Of a DNA stretch of 64,000 nt, positions 51,001 to 63,000 are shown one piece after another. The stretch's first letter is position 1. Every line of letters starts with the position of its first letter. Origin of the DNA: Candidatus Bathyarchaeia archaeon (lineage in GTDB: Archaea; Thermoproteota; Bathyarchaeia; 40CM-2-53-6); the NCBI GenBank assembly GCA_049517415.1, contig JBEKSC010000003.1, positions 89,733-153,732 on the forward strand. Direction: 5' to 3'. Position numbers: made by a program.

Positions 51001-54000
51001 TTGACCAGCTTTAAACAATTCAATACGCAAGCCGTTCTCATCTTTGCATCTCAAATAGCATAATGTGATTGATGCAATTGACCCAATTTGATCTTTAGCA
51101 TCGAAGAATGCAATCACTCTCGTAGCGCCCAAAAATGGCAATAGGTTTCCCTTCAGTTGGGGAAAGTTTTGCTCGACAATTCCAGAATATGCTGGAGGTA
51201 GGTTAGTGAAGAGCGCTTGCAAATTTCTTTGAACGCTTTCTGGAGAGTAAGCATCCCAGAAGTATCCGCCGTGAGGGATCCTGGAGTAGTCTGGTGGGTC
51301 ATAGAGACGATGAATTTCTGTAATGTCATTAGAGATCAAGTAGGAATGATATTCCTCGAATAACCCAAGTGGGATGTCTTTGTAGCCGATAGGAATCTTT
51401 GGAACAGGGCCATGGCGCTCTATTCTTGTCGTCACAAGCTCGTCTAATTTCTTCATTTCCTCGGGCATAATGTGATGGCTCAGCATATCGGGATTGAAGT
51501 ATGGTTTGCGGTACAAGCAGTCGAGGGGCGACTTCACTCCATTCCTATTTTCGCGCACCATGAGTCGAACAGCTTCTTCAACCCAGATCGGCAAACGACT
51601 ATAGAACGCAGTTTCTATCTCGGCCAGTGTGTAAGAGCCTTTTTTCTCTAATCCCAACTGCTCTGTGAATCTGTCAATGATCGCGAACATGAACTCTCTG
51701 GCTAAAGCATCGCTCCCTTTATGATCGAGTAGTTTTCCTTCGAATATTTGTCTCATCGATTCCTCTATTACTTCTACTGCATGTTGCTTCGGATGGATCT
51801 TGATCGGATTCTCAACAAAGTATCCCCTAATGCCGTCGATAGACAGCAGGTCTTGGGTTGCATCTATTGTCCTTATCTGCACAGAGTTTTCTTCAGGCTG
51901 GATGGGGTACAGGGTGTAGGTAATTGATTTAGAGGAAAAATCGCGATATGCAAGACCAACCTTCCAAGACCCGGGATAGAATCTTCTCTTTACCAGAGAG
52001 AATGGCCCATCCAGCAAAGCGTTCAACTCGTCCAAGAATTCGTGAATCTCACGAAATCCAGGGCTTGCGGAGCCGGCTGTTGTAAGAGTTGATCTCTTTG
52101 ACAGTTGGCTTAAGGTTACCTGAAGTTTGTCATATTCTCTTAGTTTCCTGTGATGCTCTTGCGAGATAGCAAGCCACTCCACGACATATCTTGTGTCTCT
52201 CCTGTCGATGACTTGAGTCAATGGGAAATGAACTGTAACGGTCTCCTGCCCGCTTGGTGGATTTACGTTCATGGGGACATGGTACCAGTAGGCTTTCTTT
52301 TGATGAACGTTCACGCCGACCAGTAGTACAGGATTGCTTGTTGTTATGGAAGCATACCCAAAGATAGACAATCGAATCTGAAGCTTTGGACTAGTACCAT
52401 AATCGTCCGGTAGTTTCTTGACTTGGATTTCGAGCTTTCCAATTGGACGATGATCTTGGTCGAGTATGTCCAAGTCGCCATCTATATCGGGAACAGTATC
52501 TTGCTGCCGGATATGAAGCATAACCTGATTTTCATCAACCAATTCCCTGAGAGTGTTTATGGCCATCACTTCTTTGATAGCTGTGGGTGGATAAGGCGCG
52601 GGTTTAGTCAATGCAGTATTCGCTCGGTGACCTTGCTATAGGTCTTGAATTGCGCCTCATCTCCAGCCTTCTTGCGGAGATAGTGAAGTGTACTCTTTCC
52701 AATCCCACGCTTTTTGGCCTCAGACTGCGTTAGTCCAAGAATCAAATTCCTAAGCGCTCGACTATCGTCCCTGTCAAGAACGGGTGAGGGTTCGGAGAAA
52801 TCAAGCGCACGAGACTTACCAGTCAAATATCTCCCCAATTCGCTTGTTTTCTCTTGAATCGCCGTATTCCACTTCATTCTTCTACCCTTGTGCACCACGC
52901 CGGAGTTGAATCGCTCACGTAACACTTCGATGAATCGCTGTCTAGCTTCAGGTTCAAAGCGATACCGGTAGTCGTCCCCAGTGAAATAGAAATCATGCAA
53001 CTCAAGAGCCTTCGATTCAAACGACTGAATCACGGATAGGTCGACTAGCCATCTGATCGGTTCCTGAAGATCGTAAACTAAACTTTCCTTTGTCTGGTAA
53101 GCACTGAAATCATGCAAGAATCCGACCGCAGGCTCCAAGCCAACCGCGTTAATGGCGATACGGCATTCACCCTCAAGAAAACCGTAGCCATAGTTCAAAG
53201 CGGCATTGAATGGGTCGGAAGTATTATTTTGATGACTCGAAGTCATCCGACCTTGAAACTCCAGCCACTCAGGCAGAGTCTTGCTAAGCGTATCTCTCCA
53301 GTAAAACTCCGGGATATGCTATCTTATCGTTTAGTGTGCCGCTTGCCGAGCATTGGAGGCAATGTAATTTGAACCGTCGTCCGTCGTTAGTAAAAGTGTG
53401 TGTGTGTGGGTATAGTGGTGCGCACACACACCTAGAGACTTCGTCCCTTCACACGAGAAAACGGAACTCTCGTGAAAGTCTACGGAGTTGACCTCATGCT
53501 AGCCATGATTCGATTTCTCTCCATTCTTTCGCAATGATGATCCTTCTGTCCTCTACGAGAGATTGTATTCGTCCTATCTTCTTCTCATTCCATGGTTGGA
53601 GAAGCAGAATACCATATTTGCGTCGAGCGAGTAGATTATCCCACTTTCGTCTCTTAGCGGTAACAAAGCTCGTTATATTGTCAATGTTATCGTCAATGAG
53701 CATATCGGCGTCTGTCGCTGCCTTACCTGAATTCGTAGTATTAACGAATTCCACTCCATCGAACTGGAATTTGCTCCGAAGCCAGCCTTCTGTATCCACT
53801 TGAGTTTCGTATGGTCGACTACTTGCAACCTTAATGTTTGCTCTCATGCGCATTGTTTCGATAGGTCCTTTTGCGCCCTCCATTTCCGGCATGCTCGCCA
53901 CAAACTTCGGTTCCTTTAGATAACGAAGAATCAAATCTGTAAACCGCTCATCCCCGACCATAGTATCCCATTCAGTGATGTCCGATTTGGTCATGTTCAA

Positions 54001-60000: not shown

Positions 60001-63000
60001 CTTCAAAGGCAAATTGGCGCAAGGCTTCTTCACCTGCAAGGTTTCTCTTCCTAATGGCAGACAGGAATGGTGGCCTGCCTATGATACATTTCAACGCTCC
60101 GAGGAAGGGGATCTGGGTGTTCTTAGTGGACAGGATGTTCACGAGGCGAAATGGGGCTTTCAGATTCCAAGAGACTTTCCTACTGGAGAATATCGTGTGC
60201 AAATCGGAGTCTGGGATAGAAAAGATTCTAGTGCAGACAACGCTCCTGTGAAGGAAAAATCAGCTTCATTCTGGGTGCTTTCACCCGGCTATAAGGGTTC
60301 ACCAAGTGTAAGCACAGTAATTCCAGATGACGGTAAGTTAGTTCAGACCCTGAAAGGAATGGAAGTTATCTAGTTCTGTCGGAAAATGGGAAAATCTTGG
60401 GTATTTTCGCTTTCGCAGATGTTCGAAGCGCAGCTAAAACAAACATCAGGGAAACGATTAGGATAGGGAGTGGAGTAGTTGGAAATTCTGGGACTGGAGT
60501 CGTCCCGACTTCAAATGAGGTTCCCGTTTGATTCAAACCTTGAGGTGTAACAATTATGTTACCATTGCTGTCAGTCATGCTCCATGACGAGGCTTGGTTC
60601 TGAAGGATTGACCCCGCTACATTGTTCACTGCTGCGCTACAATCGCTAAAGGTAACTGGTTGAAATGTTGGCAGGCTAATGTAATTGCCAGTTTTTGTGT
60701 CCCAAGGGTCCTCAACAATCCATTCTGCTGAAGCTCTAGCAGTATTAGAAATAATTACGGTGAATGTCCGGTTATCCCCTTCTTGTGCGTCTGCAATACT
60801 CAATCGAAACTGATTCTTTCCTAAGTAAGCTATTGAAGCGGTTATGTGTTCACCATAGTAAATCTCTGGAAATACTATTTGGGCTCCAGGACTGGCGAGG
60901 CTTGGATCTTCTTCCCACGCGAAATACCTTGGCGAACCATAGGCACAGAGTCCATAAGTTCCTACTTGTTCAGGTATAGCTGTGCCCAGTCCGTCAATTC
61001 CAATCCACACGCTTACGGCTTGCGAAACGATCTCCTTAGACCCTGTGCTTTGGCATTGAATTTTTGGTACAGTCCAACTGGCGCTAATGGCTGTTATGCC
61101 ATTTGAGTTTATGACGTATCCTGCCCAATTTCTCGAAGTCTGCTGGCTTGACGCGGTTTTCACGGTCGCTAACACTAGGGACGAGACTAAGAAGAGGAGA
61201 AGGATTTTCCGAACGATGCGTGGTTTCAAAGGTGAAACGGAGTTAGGAGAGGGTAGCGTGGGGGTTTAAGACTTGACAATTTTACGGCTCGCATTTTGAA
61301 TTATCGTTAACCACTTGTTATCTCCTTTCACTTTAATACCAGCGGTTTCAGCAGGTGTTTTCCCGTCTAGGGCTTCGTGTGGTCGTACATAGTTATGGAA
61401 AATCTGCATTCCTTTCAAAATCGGGGTGTCAGTCTTCTCCAAGGTTCGCGTGACACGTTCTCTATCTCGGATTTCTCCGTTCATGCGTTCCATCTTATTG
61501 TTGTGAACCTGGCCAGGTAGCCGAGCTTGGCCTAGCGTACTAACGATTTTTCCCTGTCAATTTCTCACTTTGACATTTCCTCCACTTTTCCATCCCGATT
61601 TTCTCTGTTTCTGTGTCAAATGCGCTTCTTGCATTGGGAAATGGAAAACACCCAATGACACAGGAAATTCACAATGACAATTCCTGTCACAGGGGTTTTT
61701 CTTTTCTCATTTTTCCGTGACATTTCATGCTTTTTCTCATGTCATTTCCGGTATCTTTTCGATTCGCTGTCCAAATCGTGAAAATGACGTGGAATGAGCT
61801 GGAATTTGAACTTGAAAATTCACTCAATGACGGTATGTTCCGGAATTTTGACAGTGACATTGACAATGATCTGGCTGACTTTCCGCGCACATCTCATCTT
61901 TCACTAAAATCGGAGTGACAGCACAAGGAATCGCTGACCAAACAATGAAATAACGGCGGAAAGAGAAGCTAGACTCTCCAGCCCATCGATCCTACGTTCC
62001 GTTTGTGGAGTCCGGCCCCGTTTTTCGTGTGTGTGTGGGTATAGTGGTGCGGGCATCCAGATTTGAACTGCTATATTGACGCGTCTTAGGTCATTGCACG
62101 AGCTTTGCCAAACCCATCAGTTTCTCCGCTGGCGGTTCAATTACCTCCGGACCCGCCATCAATTCACAGTGGGTCTTCGGCTCATTTTCCAAGACAGGGA
62201 TCATCCATTAACTGTAAATACTTAGATGTTCAAATAATTTAGCTTGCGAACGAAAATGCAAGCGAGCACGACACGGTCTTCTGTAGGAGAGTGCGCACAC
62301 GAAGTCCTAGACGTTGTGCCAATGGTCTTCCGAGTGATTCGAGCCGAGTTGCGAAAGCACGGTGCCAGGGAAATGTCTGTCCCGCAGTTTCGAACGTTGG
62401 GTTTTGTATACAGAAACGAGGGTGCATCGCTATCCGAAGTAGGTGACCACATTGGATTAACTCTTCCAACCATGTCATTGCTCGTCGATGGATTGGTTGC
62501 TCGTGGATTAGTCAGCCGTCGAACAGACGCTGAGGATCGACGGCGTATGACGCTGACGCTTACGGAGGCTGGGCGCGCCAGACTTGAATCAGCGCGTGCG
62601 GCGACCATGGCTAACTTGGAAGAGATGCTCCGCCAGCTTTCCGCATCTGACCGGGCGACTATTACACTGGCTATGCGAATGCTCAGCGAACTCTTTACCG
62701 GAGGGAAAGACTCTGCAAAGAATTGAGTCAGTAACCCAACAAGAGAGCAAAGATCGTTTCATACTTCAAACCCAGTCGCTCACTAAACGTTTCGGCGATT
62801 TTACTGCTGTTGACGAGTTAACAATTTCGATTGAGCCTGCGGAAATATTCGGGCTAGTTGGACCCAATGGAGCAGGTAAGACTACCGTAATCAAGATGCT
62901 TACAACTCTACTGCCTCCAACCGCTGGAAATGCTTCCGTCGACGGGAACAGTATTACCCGTGAAGCGGTGGGAGTGAGAAGAGTCATCGGATATGTTCCA

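What a model noticed while it worked through the whole genome (the two positions that open the first line are those of the whole stretch)
53375..62080. Polymerase-less casposon-like element: casposase with a mini AEP primase and an MCM/SF3-like ATPase
An 8.7-kb segment bounded by two copies of the tRNA-like repeat carries a full-length casposase (g00598, 406 aa, Cas1 core plus C-terminal extension) and, divergently, a module of unannotated genes: g00602 (P-loop ATPase with MCM/papillomavirus-E1-like fold) and g00604 (109-aa protein with AEP primase-like fold and invariant DxD...H...D). No family B polymerase is present, unlike described casposons. The genome holds 2 full and 2 truncated copies of this casposase (C8:20750-21964, C3:145166-146386; C3:142340-142978, C9:17612-18217) and no CRISPR array or other cas gene.
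Evidence so far: g01125 matches the Methanosarcina mazei casposase structure 6OPM at E 4e-69 over residues 36-403, versus E 4e-21 or worse for CRISPR Cas1; g00598 is 72% identical to it. 24 of 105 genomes of the order have it, often several copies and many fragments with stops. Homologues of g00600, g00602, g00603 lie next to the casposase in 3-6 of 13 loci compared. g00604 model pLDDT 88; best PDB matches LigD polymerase (AEP) domain, prob 0.98, Pfam AEP-TOTE at E 0.03; D10, D12, H51, D75 invariant in 20 homologues. g00602 Walker A invariant; Foldseek top hits MCM and E1 helicases, E 3e-5. By identical longest-contig lengths, at least 9 casposase clusters share a 5-53 kb metagenome contig with a g00602 homo [...]
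(Added by a program. Inside this text positions count along the whole contig: contig position 89,733 is position 1 of the stretch shown here. "Call 12" and the like, gene names such as g00115 and contig names such as C1 are that model's own, and its searches are not shown. The text may have been shortened before it was handed on; [...] marks where a part breaks off. The agent that wrote the report below was given it as the finding of a first reader that could run no searches.)

Follow-up and report, generated by a model that had tools for sequence, protein, structure and literature searches.

The report
Polymerase-less casposon with primase-like module
This is a real 8.6-kb jumping gene of a peat-soil archaeon that inserts with a Cas1-type enzyme but, instead of the usual DNA polymerase, carries a tiny two-part primase-like enzyme and an MCM-type motor protein, which widens the known ways such elements may copy themselves.

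Summary
Window 53423-62037 is a casposon of a Candidatus Bathyarchaeia genome. It is bounded by an exact 14-bp target-site duplication (53409-53422 and 62038-62051) and (CA)n termini, and it sits beside a tRNA-3'-end-like target, as M. mazei family-2 casposons do. It is the last unit of a tandem array (38.6-62.05 kb).

The casposase is full length, with the C-terminal HTH region (6OPM, E 7e-71). No family B polymerase lies in this element or among 79 ORFs scanned around 14 related loci.

Divergent from the casposase lies a conserved module:
- an MCM-type AAA+ core (VIA-align Z 17.3, top ten rows all MCM);
- a 109-aa protein with invariant D10, D12 and R78, near-invariant H51 and D74-D75, and recurrent sub-threshold AEP Pfam hits;
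- a basic 149-aa partner encoded just upstream in 18 of 23 loci, fused to it in one, and predicted to bind it (ipSAE 0.79, best control 0.19).

All activities are inferred. Polymerase-less casposons were proposed in 2022 for a different, HTH-less "family 5". Earlier notes of this scan describe the same kind on other genomes.

Verdict: new variant of a known kind.

The parts
53409..53422 (.). Left target-site duplication, GGTATAGTGGTGCG (on the other strand CGCACCACTATACC)
   Evidence: Exact 14/14 copy of 62038-62051. It starts with CGCA, like M. mazei casposon TSDs (PMC4779613 and PMC6977970, passages).
53423..53467 (.). Left terminus: CACACACAC followed by an imperfect inverted repeat
   Evidence: Local alignment with the reverse complement of the right end: 9 nt exact, then a shared AAACGGAAC block; score 25.
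53494..54720 (-). Cargo: 408-aa membrane protein with a C-terminal NT5C 5'-nucleotidase domain
   Evidence: Pfam NT5C E 8.7e-13; phrog_420 E 3.4e-15.
54752..55444 (-). Cargo: 230-aa protein (reads as a membrane protein by eye), no family hit; its start overlaps the casposase stop
   Evidence: ORF list; no Pfam hit.
55434..56666 (-). Casposase: Cas1 core plus C-terminal HTH region
   Evidence: Pfam Cas_Cas1 E 5.4e-52. 6OPM E 6.9e-71 over residues 9-404, with VEG, GFLH and YDLQEP conserved in the printed alignment.
56672..56962 (-). orf96, small protein upstream of the casposase; unknown
   Evidence: A 52% identical homologue lies in sister element L008. No family or PDB hit.
57154..57429 (+). 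orf91, first gene of the divergent module; unknown
   Evidence: blastp ORF homologues in 4 related loci, plus tblastn hits in L007, L009, L010, L013 and L033. No family hit.
57426..57734 (+). orf102, unknown
   Evidence: Homologue in L008 only.
57785..58675 (+). MCM-type AAA+ ATPase core without an MCM N-terminal domain (likely start about 23 codons in)
   Evidence: Model pLDDT 77.3, pTM 0.81. Foldseek's listed top matches are all MCM, best E 1.3e-7. VIA-align top 10 rows are all MCM, Z 15.4-17.3, 227-248 residues aligned. Walker A GKT and R177 in GFLSR are invariant.
58672..59121 (+). basic149: basic partner subunit of the mini-AEP, no known family
   Evidence: Lies immediately upstream of the mini-AEP in 18 of 23 loci and is fused to it in L010. 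Predicted complex ipSAE 0.79, best control 0.19.
59114..59443 (+). Mini-AEP: 109-aa ferredoxin/RRM-like protein with DxD...H...DD..R motifs
   Evidence: D10, D12 and R78 are invariant in 73 sequences; G49, H51, G73, D74, D75 and R85 are conserved in at least 90%. Model pLDDT 95.9. AEP-TOTE hits in 10 of 73 members, best 4.9e-6 at 26.8 bits against a cut-off of 27. Foldseek top match is the LigD polymerase domain.
59711..60373 (+). Cargo: orf220, unknown
   Evidence: ORF list; only weak Pfam hits.
60366..61229 (-). Cargo: peptidase A4-family protein (N-terminus reads as a signal peptide or anchor by eye)
   Evidence: Pfam Peptidase_A4 E 3.7e-26.
61266..61493 (-). Remnant of an IS transposase (rve_3 C-terminus) inside the element
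   Evidence: Pfam rve_3 E 7.4e-4. blastn copies on C23, C14, C7 and C4.
61555..61925 (.). Non-coding region rich in TGACA/TGTCA (iteron-like, TG[AT]CA[AT]TTCC); candidate origin or binding sites
   Evidence: 12 motifs per 500 nt, against a window mean of 0.83 and a 95th percentile of 2; this is the maximum of the window.
61996..62037 (.). Right terminus, ending ...CGTTTTTCGTGTGTGTGTG
   Evidence: Its reverse complement aligns with the left terminus.
62038..62051 (.). Right target-site duplication
   Evidence: Exact copy of 53409-53422.
62052..62081 (-). tRNA-3'-end-like target flank (minus strand: ..GTTCAAATCTGGATGCC, followed by CGCACCA of the TSD)
   Evidence: Sequence read directly. No tRNA is called here. 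The same motif flanks sister elements. The M. mazei casposase needs the TSD plus 30 bp of the tRNA 3' end (PMC6977970).

Best explanation
Window 53423-62037 is a bona fide casposon of a Candidatus Bathyarchaeia archaeon, related to family 2.

How it inserts. Its casposase has a Cas1 fold plus a C-terminal HTH region. I infer that it recognises a roughly 30-bp tRNA-3'-end-like sequence. It would then join the (CA)n-terminated element ends across a 14-bp staggered cut that starts CGCACCA. Gap repair gives the exact 14-bp duplication that is seen.

What replaces the polymerase. The element has no family B DNA polymerase. Instead it carries a conserved divergent module with two parts:
- a two-subunit primase-like enzyme, made of the 109-aa mini-AEP catalytic core plus the basic 149-aa partner;
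- an MCM-type AAA+ ATPase core.

Most likely role (inferred). This module is the element's DNA-synthesis function. The AEP-like heterodimer would prime, or fill in, DNA on the element. The MCM-like ATPase would open or translocate on DNA. Bulk synthesis would be left to host polymerases.

Shown here: the element's anatomy, the conservation, the linkage of the genes, the folds and the predicted binding. Inferred: every enzymatic activity, and the step at which the module acts.
For: Ends and target.
- Exact 14-bp TSD with inverted (CA)n termini.
- The same architecture occurs in sister elements. L008 has an exact TSD, a 44-nt near-perfect TIR and a 9,004-bp body carrying casposase, ATPase, basic149, mini-AEP, orf102 and orf96. 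L011 has an exact TSD and is 9.4 kb. The C8 copy of this genome has a TSD with 2 mismatches.
- An uninterrupted paralogous site, C2:871-954, aligns to both flanks: 53358-53422 at 82% and 62027-62069 at 88%.
- The TSD starts CGCA and follows a tRNA-3'-like stretch. This matches the experimentally defined M. mazei target of TSD plus 30 bp (PMC4779613 and PMC6977970, passages).

Casposase. 6OPM at E 6.9e-71 over residues 9-404; the best CRISPR Cas1 scores 3e-25.

No PolB. None in the element, none on contig C3, and none among 79 ORFs scanned around 14 related casposase loci.

Linkage of the module to casposases.
- 13 of 20 mini-AEP matches in 105 order genomes lie within 5 kb of a casposase match. 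4 more are on contigs of at most 5.6 kb; 3 are not linked.
- The same arrangement occurs in a genome of another order (L043).
- By my reading of the tables, 12 of 20 near-full-length casposase loci carry the mini-AEP or a remnant of it.

Mini-AEP.
- D10, D12 and R78 are invariant, and H51, D74 and D75 are conserved in at least 90% of 73 diverse sequences.
- AEP-TOTE hits appear in 10 of 73 members, in one register (profile positions about 83-156). DNA_primase_S appears in 3 and LigD_Prim-Pol in 1.
- The Foldseek top 8 are the LigD polymerase domain at 22-25% identity.
- The nearest named Atlas cluster is 'AEP-like', score 0.89.

Partner subunit.
- basic149 lies upstream of the mini-AEP in 18 of 23 loci and is fused to it in L010 (hhalign probability 96%, E 4.9e-9).
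- Complex prediction gives score 0.79; the best of 3 controls gives 0.19.
- This mark was reached by 116 of 157 solved complexes and 2 of 215 mismatched pairs. Those counts hold only roughly, because my own alignments were used.
- The runs agree in 100% of their contacts, and the partner's pLDDT is at least 91.
- The interface joins the conserved FERE motif of basic149 to the WNKLF helix of the mini-AEP.

ATPase. VIA-align Z 17.3 (rmsd 3.4, 227 residues aligned) to the M. kandleri MCM homologue. The top 10 rows are all MCM. Other AAA+ ATPases follow: RavA, BchI, BrxL, a MoxR-like ATPase and ComM, which I recall as the pre-sensor-II-insert clade.
Against: - No AEP model reaches its Pfam gathering score. 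The window protein scores 14.2 bits; the best family member scores 26.8 against a cut-off of 27.
- Structure alone does not single out AEPs. In the VIA-align search, AEPs (Z 4.8-4.9) are tied with many ferredoxin-like domains (top Z 6.1). Foldseek gives E 0.011 and TM 0.44.
- 109 aa is far smaller than any characterised AEP core (recalled). basic149 shows no similarity to AEPs or to anything else.
- The ATPase has only D at the Walker B position (PD106L, no Glu). It has no Pfam MCM hit and no N-terminal domain, and the model shows no evident beta-hairpins in the DNA-binding region.
- The ATPase accompanies the module in only some loci: 10 of 105 genomes, against 12 for the mini-AEP.
- 8 of 20 near-full-length casposase loci have no mini-AEP match, so the module is not essential for all relatives.
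- The window element's own inverted repeat is weak: 9 nt perfect, then patchy.
- No empty site or excised form was found.
Confidence: 0.55

Rival explanations
1. Gap-repair reading. The mini-AEP heterodimer does not replicate the element. Instead it fills the two 14-nt single-stranded gaps left by casposase integration, or processes element ends. This is analogous to what has been proposed for CRISPR-associated Prim-Pols working with Cas1-Cas2.
For: - The best fold and sequence-structure match is the LigD polymerase domain, which I recall as a gap-filling NHEJ polymerase.
- CAPP Prim-Pols bind Cas1 physically and were proposed to resolve the post-integration intermediate (PMC8211822, passages).
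- The tight linkage is to the casposase rather than to the ATPase, which is missing from several loci.
Against: - Pairing with an MCM-type ATPase is, from recall, typical of replication modules of archaeal plasmids and viruses.
- An iteron-like region sits in the element.
- Host polymerases could fill 14-nt gaps.
- No test of mini-AEP binding to casposase was run.
Confidence: 0.25
2. Not a polymerase at all. g00604 is a ferredoxin-like DNA-binding or nuclease protein, for example an origin-binding or Rep-like domain, or a Cas2-like partner of the casposase. The AEP-like motifs are then convergent.
For: - Generic ferredoxin-like domains outrank AEPs in the VIA-align search (top Z 6.1 against 4.8-4.9).
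- HUH/Rep and SV40 origin-binding domains appear among the Foldseek rows.
- All AEP Pfam hits are below threshold.
- Its size is close to that of Cas2 (recalled).
Against: - There is no HUH motif and no conserved Tyr: Y53 is not among the columns conserved in at least 90% of the 73 sequences.
- The recurring weak Pfam hits are to three different AEP families in a consistent register. No Cas2 or Rep family is among the 25 of 36 families listed.
- The order and spacing DxD...H...DD fit AEP motifs I-III (motif definitions recalled).
Confidence: 0.2
3. Passenger reading. The casposon is simply non-self-synthesising and relies wholly on the host. The AEP/MCM genes are cargo captured from a plasmid or virus, with no role in the element's own propagation.
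For: - Relatives carry very varied cargo, much of it defence-like.
- Mini-AEP homologues occur in archaeal virus contigs without a casposase (L037).
- 8 of 20 near-full-length casposase loci lack the module.
- Salgado et al. 2022 read PolB-less casposons as non-self-replicative (PMC9755687, passages).
Against: - The module keeps its position (divergent from the casposase), its order and its catalytic residues. It does so across elements whose casposases are only 58-73% identical, in 5 families of the order and in a second order.
- Cargo genes are not conserved in this way.
Confidence: 0.15
4. Not one element. The 8.7-kb stretch is a mosaic between copies of a dispersed tRNA-like repeat, assembled by recombination or by another integrase.
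For: - The repeat is multi-copy: 28 copies in the genome and dozens in every genome of the genus.
- The left and right flanks of the whole array are 390-560 kb apart in relatives.
- An IS remnant lies inside the stretch.
Against: - The duplication is an exact 14 bp, exactly abutting inverted (CA)n ends.
- An independent sister element, L008, has the same gene set, its own exact TSD and a 44-nt TIR.
- No tyrosine or serine recombinase was seen among the array's ORFs.
- Contigs from 4 public runs cover the element at the same depth as its flanks.
Confidence: 0.05

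Closest known systems
Family 2 casposons (for example MetMaz1FA1A3-C2 of Methanosarcina mazei and AciBoo-C1); Krupovic et al. 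2014 and 2016, Hickman et al. 2020
   Same: - The casposase has a C-terminal HTH region and is best matched by the M. mazei casposase 6OPM.
- The TSD is 14 bp and begins CGCA. The target is a tRNA-3'-end(-like) sequence upstream of the TSD.
- Tandem arrays, solo ends and degraded copies occur.
- In relatives, an HTH protein is encoded just upstream of the casposase. One of these has a sub-threshold HEAT hit.
   Different: - No family B polymerase and no HNH nuclease.
- In their place sit a mini-AEP with its basic partner and an MCM-type ATPase.
- The host is Bathyarchaeia, not Euryarchaeota.
- The target is a dispersed tRNA-like mimic rather than a detectable tRNA gene.
'Family 5' casposases/casposons proposed from hot-spring metagenomes (Salgado et al. 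2022, PMC9755687)
   Same: Solo Cas1 with conserved catalytic residues, TIRs in some contigs, and no DNA polymerase B in most members (passages).
   Different: - Family 5 is described as lacking the HTH domain and as branching next to subtype I-A Cas1. Its neighbours are called only hypothetical proteins.
- The present casposase aligns with a family-2 enzyme through its C-terminal region.
- No phylogeny with family-5 sequences could be made here. The paper's supplements were not read.
CRISPR-associated Prim-Pols (CAPP; Zabrady et al. 2021, PMC8211822)
   Same: An AEP-type enzyme genetically linked to a Cas1-family integrase. A role in DNA synthesis around integration has been proposed (passages).
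   Different: - CAPPs have AEP domains of about 220 aa inside larger proteins, and they sit in CRISPR-Cas operons with Cas2.
- Here there is a 109-aa core with a separate partner, in a transposon with no Cas2.
- Similarity to CAPP structures is weak (Foldseek E 0.08-0.3).
Primase-helicase replication modules of archaeal plasmids and viruses (for example the pRN1 ORF904 prim-pol with helicase, and MCM genes on archaeal mobile elements; recalled)
   Same: Pairing of an AEP-type enzyme with a hexameric-helicase-type ATPase on a mobile element. Mini-AEP homologues occur in archaeal virus contigs.
   Different: - The enzyme is split, and far smaller than those Prim-Pols.
- The ATPase is an MCM AAA+ core alone.
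- The vehicle is a Cas1 transposon rather than a plasmid, or an element with a tyrosine integrase.

Membership tests
Casposon (superfamily) | Cas1-family integrase (casposase) with catalytic residues, not part of a CRISPR-Cas locus | tested here: met
   Cas_Cas1 E 5.4e-52. 6OPM E 6.9e-71 with the VEG, GFLH and YDLQEP blocks conserved. No Cas2 in the genome and no array in a naive scan. Other cas families were not searched.
Casposon (superfamily) | Target-site duplication of 14-15 bp flanking the element | tested here: met
   Exact 14-bp direct repeat at 53409-53422 and 62038-62051.
Casposon (superfamily) | Terminal inverted repeats | tested here: met
   Weak in the window element: 9 nt exact CACACACAC, then patchy to about 45 nt. 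Clear in sister element L008: 44 nt, near perfect.
Casposon (superfamily) | Family B DNA polymerase ('self-synthesising') | tested here: not met
   No DNA_pol_B hit on the element's ORFs or on contig C3. None among 79 ORFs around 14 related loci. The PF03175 search was uninformative because its control was silent.
Family 2 casposons | Casposase with a C-terminal HTH extension | tested here: met
   The alignment to the M. mazei enzyme runs through query residues 340-404 and chain residues 347-411. The role and presence of the HTH in family 2 come from PMC6977970.
Family 2 casposons | Integration at a tRNA 3' end or an intergenic site, with a 14-bp TSD starting 5'-CGCA | tested here: met
   The TSD on the other strand reads CGCACCACTATACC, preceded by ..GTTCAAATCTGGATGCC. 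No actual tRNA gene is detected there.
Family 2 casposons | Core genes: PolB, HNH nuclease, HTH-HEAT protein | tested here: not met
   The window element has none of them by Pfam. Relatives have an HTH protein upstream of the casposase; one (L015) has a HEAT_2 hit at 24.4 bits, below the 27.7 cut-off.
'Family 5' casposons (Salgado et al. 2022) | Casposase without an HTH domain, branching near subtype I-A Cas1 | tested here: not met
   A C-terminal region homologous to the family-2 HTH region is present. The branching position is not testable here because no family-5 sequences are held.
Archaeo-eukaryotic primase (AEP) superfamily, for g00604 | Motifs I (DxD), II (..H) and III (D) in order on a conserved core (definitions recalled) | tested here: met
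   D10 and D12 are invariant; H51, D74 and D75 are conserved in at least 90% of 73 sequences.
Archaeo-eukaryotic primase (AEP) superfamily, for g00604 | Significant match to a curated AEP profile | tested here: not met
   Window protein against AEP-TOTE: 14.2 bits against a cut-off of 27. Best family member: 26.8 bits. 10 of 73 members hit AEP-TOTE, 3 hit DNA_primase_S and 1 hits LigD_Prim-Pol, all sub-threshold.
Archaeo-eukaryotic primase (AEP) superfamily, for g00604 | AEP catalytic fold | tested here: inconclusive
   Foldseek top 8 are the LigD polymerase domain (E 0.011, probability 0.99, TM 0.44, 22-25% identity). VIA-align places AEPs (RepB' Z 4.9; S-2L PrimPol 4.8; ASFV PrimPol 4.8) level with many ferredoxin-like domains.
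Archaeo-eukaryotic primase (AEP) superfamily, for g00604 | Primase or polymerase activity | not testable with these tools
   Needs biochemistry.
MCM helicase family, for g00602 | AAA+ fold closest to MCM | tested here: met
   VIA-align Z 17.3 (3f8t) and 16.1 (8q67); the top 10 rows are all MCM. RavA, BchI and BrxL follow at Z 13.4-14.2. Foldseek E 1.3e-7.
MCM helicase family, for g00602 | Walker A, Walker B (acidic pair) and arginine finger | tested here: inconclusive
   Walker A SGKT and R177 in GFLSR are invariant. The likeness of GFLSR to the MCM SRF motif is recalled. The Walker B position has D106 only, followed by Leu.
MCM helicase family, for g00602 | N-terminal OB/Zn domain and a match to the Pfam MCM profile | tested here: not met
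   The protein is 273-296 aa, and the AAA+ core starts near residue 25. No MCM family at E<=0.1.

The most novel reading that the evidence does not exclude
The 109-aa protein and its basic partner form the smallest known working AEP, a split primase-polymerase. Together with a stripped-down MCM core, it gives a casposon a PolB-independent way to synthesise its own DNA. On this reading, the partnership between a Cas1-family integrase and a Prim-Pol, known from CAPP-containing CRISPR loci, already existed in transposons. The elements' tRNA-mimic targets, which in neighbouring units sit beside the (CA)n ends, would let them build TSD-punctuated tandem arrays.
Probability: 0.3. Interest if true: 0.8.

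Novelty: new variant of a known kind. Interest (0 to 1): 0.66.

Why it matters
Casposons were defined as self-synthesising transposons because they pair Cas1 with a family B polymerase. They are the favoured ancestors of the CRISPR adaptation module.

A widespread lineage in Bathyarchaeia keeps the family-2 integration logic: 14-bp TSD, CGCA, tRNA-like target and HTH-bearing casposase. It replaces PolB with a primase-like heterodimer and an MCM core. This matters in three ways:
- It shows that the polymerase is exchangeable.
- It offers a very small AEP candidate for biochemistry.
- It gives an independent, transposon-side example of the Cas1-Prim-Pol association described for CRISPR loci.

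The exact TSD and the defined target make an in vitro integration test straightforward.

I found no paper on Bathyarchaeia casposons, or on a casposon with an AEP or MCM module. The searches were made, over open-access full text and bioRxiv only. Earlier unchecked notes of this scan report the same kind on other genomes.

Tried and rejected
- The search for related loci with the 14-sequence mini-AEP alignment failed because no stretch was conserved enough. It was repeated with a 6-sequence alignment.
- Empty site for the whole array. The left and right flanks lie 390-560 kb apart in relatives G045 and G046, so no empty site could be read.
- Public runs. 20 runs from 19 studies hold the element, all kept as contigs, and no RNA holder is listed. 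Laying 4 runs showed the element at the same depth as its flanks, with contigs bridging the right junction. There was no clean empty-site or circle joint. One low-depth joint (53431 to 62028; depth 6.9; 28 letters on the shorter side) does not fit an excision and probably comes from another repeat copy.
- Sequence searches of solved structures found nothing usable. This covers profiles of the ATPase, the mini-AEP and basic149 and the single sequences orf102, orf91 and orf96.
- basic149 as the missing N-terminal AEP module. This stays open.
- P0289 (269 aa) is not a basic149-mini-AEP fusion.
- The N-terminal half of the viral 252-aa homologue is not basic149.
- tRNA at the right flank. None by ARAGORN or by Rfam at E<=10, and none by default ARAGORN in the loci with sister elements.
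- The PF03175 (protein-primed PolB) search was silent in the controls too, so it says nothing.
- PHROGs and NCBIfam gave only phrog_12608 (unknown function, E 3.8e-4) for the mini-AEP and a sub-threshold BrxF hit for the ATPase.
- SF3/E1-like reading of the ATPase. No SF3 helicase appears among the listed Foldseek rows or the 50 VIA-align rows.

Full report
WHAT IS THERE

The window is G000:C3:89733-153732 of a 2.65-Mb, 59-contig genome. Record titles of its relatives name Candidatus Bathyarchaeia.

Between 53.4 and 62.1 kb the ORF list and Pfam give these genes.

On the minus strand:
- a 408-aa membrane protein with an NT5C domain;
- a 230-aa protein with no family hit (it reads as a membrane protein by eye);
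- a 410-aa Cas1-family protein, 55434-56666;
- a 96-aa ORF.

On the plus strand, divergent from these:
- ORFs of 91 and 102 aa;
- a 296-aa P-loop protein (g00602);
- a basic 149-aa protein (g00603);
- a 109-aa protein (g00604);
- then a 220-aa ORF, a peptidase A4 gene on the minus strand, and a fragment of an IS transposase.

The Cas1 protein matches the M. mazei casposase 6OPM at E 6.9e-71 over residues 9-404. The best CRISPR Cas1 scores 3e-25. The match includes the C-terminal part, which in family-2 casposases is the HTH domain and is essential for integration (PMC6977970, passages).

ENDS

The 25-nt exact direct repeat at 53398 and 62027 (none expected by chance) resolves into two parts: a (GT)n run and a 14-bp duplication.
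- The duplication is GGTATAGTGGTGCG, at 53409-53422 and 62038-62051.
- The DNA between the copies begins CACACACAC and ends GTGTGTGTG.
- Left and right termini share only this 9-nt inverted repeat and a patchy match out to about 45 nt.

Three other elements show the same architecture:
- L008 (another family of the order): an exact 14-bp duplication, a 44-nt near-perfect TIR, and a 9,004-bp body. The body carries casposase, ATPase, basic149, mini-AEP, orf102 and orf96.
- L011: an exact duplication and a 9.4-kb body.
- The second full copy in this genome (C8): 5.2 kb, with a duplication carrying 2 mismatches.

Read on the other strand, the duplication is CGCACCA plus 7 nt. It is preceded by ..GTTCAAATCTGGATGCC, which resembles a tRNA T-loop, acceptor stem and CCA.

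This mirrors the M. mazei system. There the TSD is 14 bp and starts 5'-CGCA. It overlaps the end of tRNA-Leu, and integration in vitro needs the TSD plus 30 bp of the tRNA (PMC4779613 and PMC6977970, passages).

No tRNA gene is detectable at the right flank. The site is therefore a tRNA-3'-like mimic.

An uninterrupted paralogue of the target, C2:871-954, aligns to both flanks of the element. It serves as a paralogous empty site.

A true empty site was not found:
- The flanks of the whole array are not adjacent in relatives.
- Contigs from 4 public peat or soil runs show the element at the depth of its flanks, with no clean excision joint.

CONTEXT

The element is the last unit of a tandem array running from about 38.6 to 62.05 kb.
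- GTGTGTG-(14 bp)-CACACAC junctions lie near 39300, 45400, 47475 and 53409. An inverted copy lies at 38600-38641.
- The array begins 90 nt after an intron-containing tRNA at 38371-38509 (Rfam 26.8 bits; ARAGORN with introns allowed).
- The neighbouring unit, 47489-53408, ends with a truncated casposase at 52608-53246.
- No other recombinase was seen in the array.
- Tandem casposons and degraded copies are known from Methanosarcina.

NO POLYMERASE B
- None of the element's ORFs hits a PolB family.
- A six-frame PF00136 search of the genome finds four PolB genes, none on this contig.
- None of 79 ORFs scanned around 14 related casposase loci hits PolB. Their cargo is varied and often defence-like: TIR, SIR2, AIPR, AbiV, DUF4365, and a methylase with ParB.
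- The genome has no Cas2, and a naive scan finds no CRISPR array.

THE MODULE IS LINKED TO THE CASPOSASE

In the 105 genomes of the order:
- the casposase matches in 45 at E<=1e-10, including weak hits that are probably CRISPR Cas1;
- the ATPase matches in 10;
- the 109-aa protein matches in 12.

Of the 20 matches to the 109-aa protein:
- 13 lie within 5 kb of a casposase match;
- 4 lie on contigs of at most 5.6 kb that end too soon to tell;
- 3 (two of them fragments) have none on their contig.

The C8 copy, said to lack the module, keeps a 29-residue remnant of the 109-aa gene.

A phylum-wide sample of 401 genomes gave only 4 with a match, G000 included. One of them, from another order, has the full set of casposase, basic149, mini-AEP and ATPase.

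Conversely, by my reading of the tables, 8 of 20 near-full-length casposase loci show no mini-AEP. The module is common but not universal.

THE 109-AA PROTEIN

Family and conservation.
- A profile search of 1.84 billion representatives finds 368 relatives at E<=0.001, mostly stand-alone proteins of 100-160 aa.
- In 73 diverse members, D10, D12 and R78 are invariant. G49, H51, Q69, G73, D74, D75, N82 and R85 are conserved in at least 90%.
- This gives the pattern hhKhDxD ... KGxHhhI ... LLGDDxxR. It has the order of AEP motifs I-III (definitions recalled).

Fold.
- The AlphaFold model is confident (pLDDT 95.9, pTM 0.88) and shows a beta-alpha-beta-beta-alpha(-alpha)-beta fold.
- Foldseek's top eight matches are the LigD polymerase (AEP) domain: E 0.011, probability 0.99, TM 0.44, 22-25% identity. 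CAPP Prim-Pol domains and HUH/Rep-type domains rank lower.
- An exhaustive VIA-align search places AEPs (Z 4.8-4.9) level with many ferredoxin-like domains; the top Z is 6.1. Fold alone does not decide.

Sequence profiles add evidence.
- 10 of 73 members hit AEP-TOTE, all in one register (profile positions about 83-156). The best is E 4.9e-6 at 26.8 bits, against a cut-off of 27.
- 3 members hit DNA_primase_S and 1 hits LigD_Prim-Pol. No other family recurs in more than 2 members.
- The nearest named Atlas cluster is a 127-aa 'AEP-like' family, score 0.89, which is a lead only.

Relatives elsewhere.
- Relatives occur in archaeal-virus-like IMG/VR contigs. They form the C-terminal half of a 252-aa protein (hhalign probability 98.7%, E 3e-16) that corresponds to phrog_12608.
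- Two relatives carry LAGLIDADG domains.

I read the protein as a minimal AEP catalytic core, with probability about 0.7. An actual primase or polymerase activity is about 0.5.

ITS PARTNER
- The basic 149-aa protein lies immediately upstream of the mini-AEP, with overlapping stop and start, in 18 of the 23 loci that hold a mini-AEP match.
- In L010 the two are one reading frame (hhalign of the N-terminal part against the basic149 profile: probability 96%, E 4.9e-9).
- The 4 loci without it are a remnant, two distant homologues and the viral one.

Complex prediction supports binding.
- The score is 0.79; the best of 3 controls is 0.19.
- That mark was reached by 116 of 157 solved complexes and 2 of 215 mismatched pairs. 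The counts hold only roughly, because my own alignments were used.
- The runs agree in 100% of contacts, and the partner's pLDDT is at least 91.
- The interface joins the conserved FERE motif and strand 90-105 of basic149 to the WNKLF helix (residues 80-104) of the mini-AEP.

This is the model's confidence, not a measurement. basic149 has no detectable family. Whether it supplies the N-terminal module that the 109-aa core lacks remains open.

THE ATPASE
- With a 14-sequence alignment the model reaches pLDDT 77.3 and pTM 0.81.
- Foldseek's listed top matches are all MCM AAA+ domains (best E 1.3e-7; TM by query 0.52-0.62).
- In the Foldseek-independent search, the top 10 of 48,161 chains are all MCM (Z 15.4-17.3; 227-248 residues aligned; rmsd 3.4-3.8).
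- Next come RavA, BchI, BrxL, a MoxR-like ATPase and ComM, which I recall as the pre-sensor-II-insert clade.
- Walker A (SGKT) and R177 in GFLSR are invariant. GFLSR resembles the MCM SRF arginine-finger motif (recalled).

Against a working helicase:
- The Walker B position has only Asp.
- There is no N-terminal domain.
- No Pfam MCM hit appears.
- The model shows no evident DNA-binding hairpins.

The family is abundant in metagenomes: 324 clusters at E<=0.001, none named.

HOW IT MOST LIKELY WORKS
- Shown: a Cas1 transposon with family-2-type ends and target, no PolB, and a conserved gene trio.
- Inferred: the casposase inserts the element at tRNA-like sites. The mini-AEP heterodimer primes or fills DNA, and the MCM core opens or moves along DNA. 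The element would thus provide initiation functions and borrow host polymerases for bulk synthesis.
- A TGACA/TGTCA-rich non-coding stretch (12 per 500 nt against a window mean of 0.83) near the right end is a candidate origin or binding region.
- The main rival is a gap-filling role at the 14-nt integration gaps, as proposed for CAPP with Cas1-Cas2. I cannot separate the two readings.

WHAT IS KNOWN
- The thaumarchaeal mobilome paper, the 2016 casposon paper and a 2023 review describe casposons with PolB. I read passages of each only.
- Salgado et al. 2022 proposed 'family 5' casposases. Most lack PolB, they have no HTH, and their neighbours are called hypothetical.
- The present casposase does not meet the no-HTH criterion.
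- Searches for casposon with Bathyarchaeota, casposase with Bathyarchaeia, casposon with primase, and all casposon papers since 2021 found no description of this module. Only open-access and bioRxiv full text was searched.
- Earlier unchecked notes of this scan describe the same kind of element on other genomes. I did not use them as evidence.

VERDICT

The finding is real and its reading is supported. It is a new variant of a known kind. Its interest lies in three things: the exchange of PolB for an AEP/MCM module, the very small two-subunit AEP candidate, and the parallel with Cas1-associated Prim-Pols.

Noticed in passing
window 38600-62051: A tandem array of five segments separated by GTGTGTG-(14 bp, ..TGGTGCG)-CACACAC junctions, near 39300, 45400, 47475 and 53409, and ending at 62038. 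Only the last segment has an intact casposase. The others carry an amidohydrolase, an FAD/BBE oxidase, a 541-aa AAA ATPase, Hypoth_Ymh, DUF4365 and a truncated casposase. They look like degraded or non-autonomous casposon units.
   Followed up: partly
window 38371-38509: An intron-containing tRNA with encoded CCA lies 90 nt before the array. Default ARAGORN missed it. ARAGORN with introns allowed found it, as did Rfam at 26.8 bits, below the gathering score of 29.
   Followed up: partly
genome-wide, e.g. C2:850-984, C12:1255-3475, C39, C37; window 45367-45460: A unit of about 40-70 nt is multi-copy. It consists of a tRNA-3'-like motif, a 14-bp site and a (CA)n/(GT)n run. There are 28 copies in this genome and dozens in each of the 22 other genomes of the genus. 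It is often at contig ends, sometimes in close tandem (about 51-nt units) or as a palindrome. In neighbouring units the tRNA-like motif sits just inside the (GT)n end, as if element ends carry a new copy of the target. Not explained.
   Followed up: partly
window 61555-61925: A non-coding stretch with 12 TGACA/TGTCA motifs per 500 nt, the maximum of the window. Several fit TG[AT]CA[AT]TTCC. It looks iteron-like.
   Followed up: partly
G000:C8:19939-20025 and C8:27130-28287 (L017): The 5.2-kb C8 casposon keeps a 29-residue remnant of the mini-AEP gene. A family B polymerase gene (870-aa frame) lies about 4.2 kb beyond its TSD, outside the element. Whether that gene is cellular was not checked.
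   Followed up: no
L008, L009, L011, L012, L013, L015, L024: Related casposons carry defence-like cargo: TIR-domain proteins, SIR2_2 with an ATPase, AIPR, HEPN_AbiV, DUF4365, and a DNA methylase with ParB_N.
   Followed up: no
P0201, P0257 (metagenome proteins): Two mini-AEP family members are about 400 aa long. An HTH region and LAGLIDADG_3 domains lie ahead of the mini-AEP domain, and a second DxD-like stretch sits at the N-terminus. This suggests insertion of a homing endonuclease.
   Followed up: no
L037:7596-8354 (IMG/VR contig of about 41 kb) and six similar viral contigs: A 252-aa viral protein has a C-terminal half that belongs to the mini-AEP family (phrog_12608, unknown function). 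The neighbouring small genes read like ribbon-helix-helix proteins by eye, as in crenarchaeal filamentous viruses (not tested).
   Followed up: partly
window 36400-38640 and 62052-64000: The two flanks of the array are 390-560 kb apart in the closest complete relatives (G045, G046). The first 107 nt after the array match a place 13 kb downstream of the left-flank homologue in G045. A rearrangement at the array is likely.
   Followed up: no
G000:C7:15875-17065 and C46:8478-9698: Two of the four PolB matches in the genome contain one in-frame TAG each, as do several casposase fragments in relatives. Not examined.
   Followed up: no
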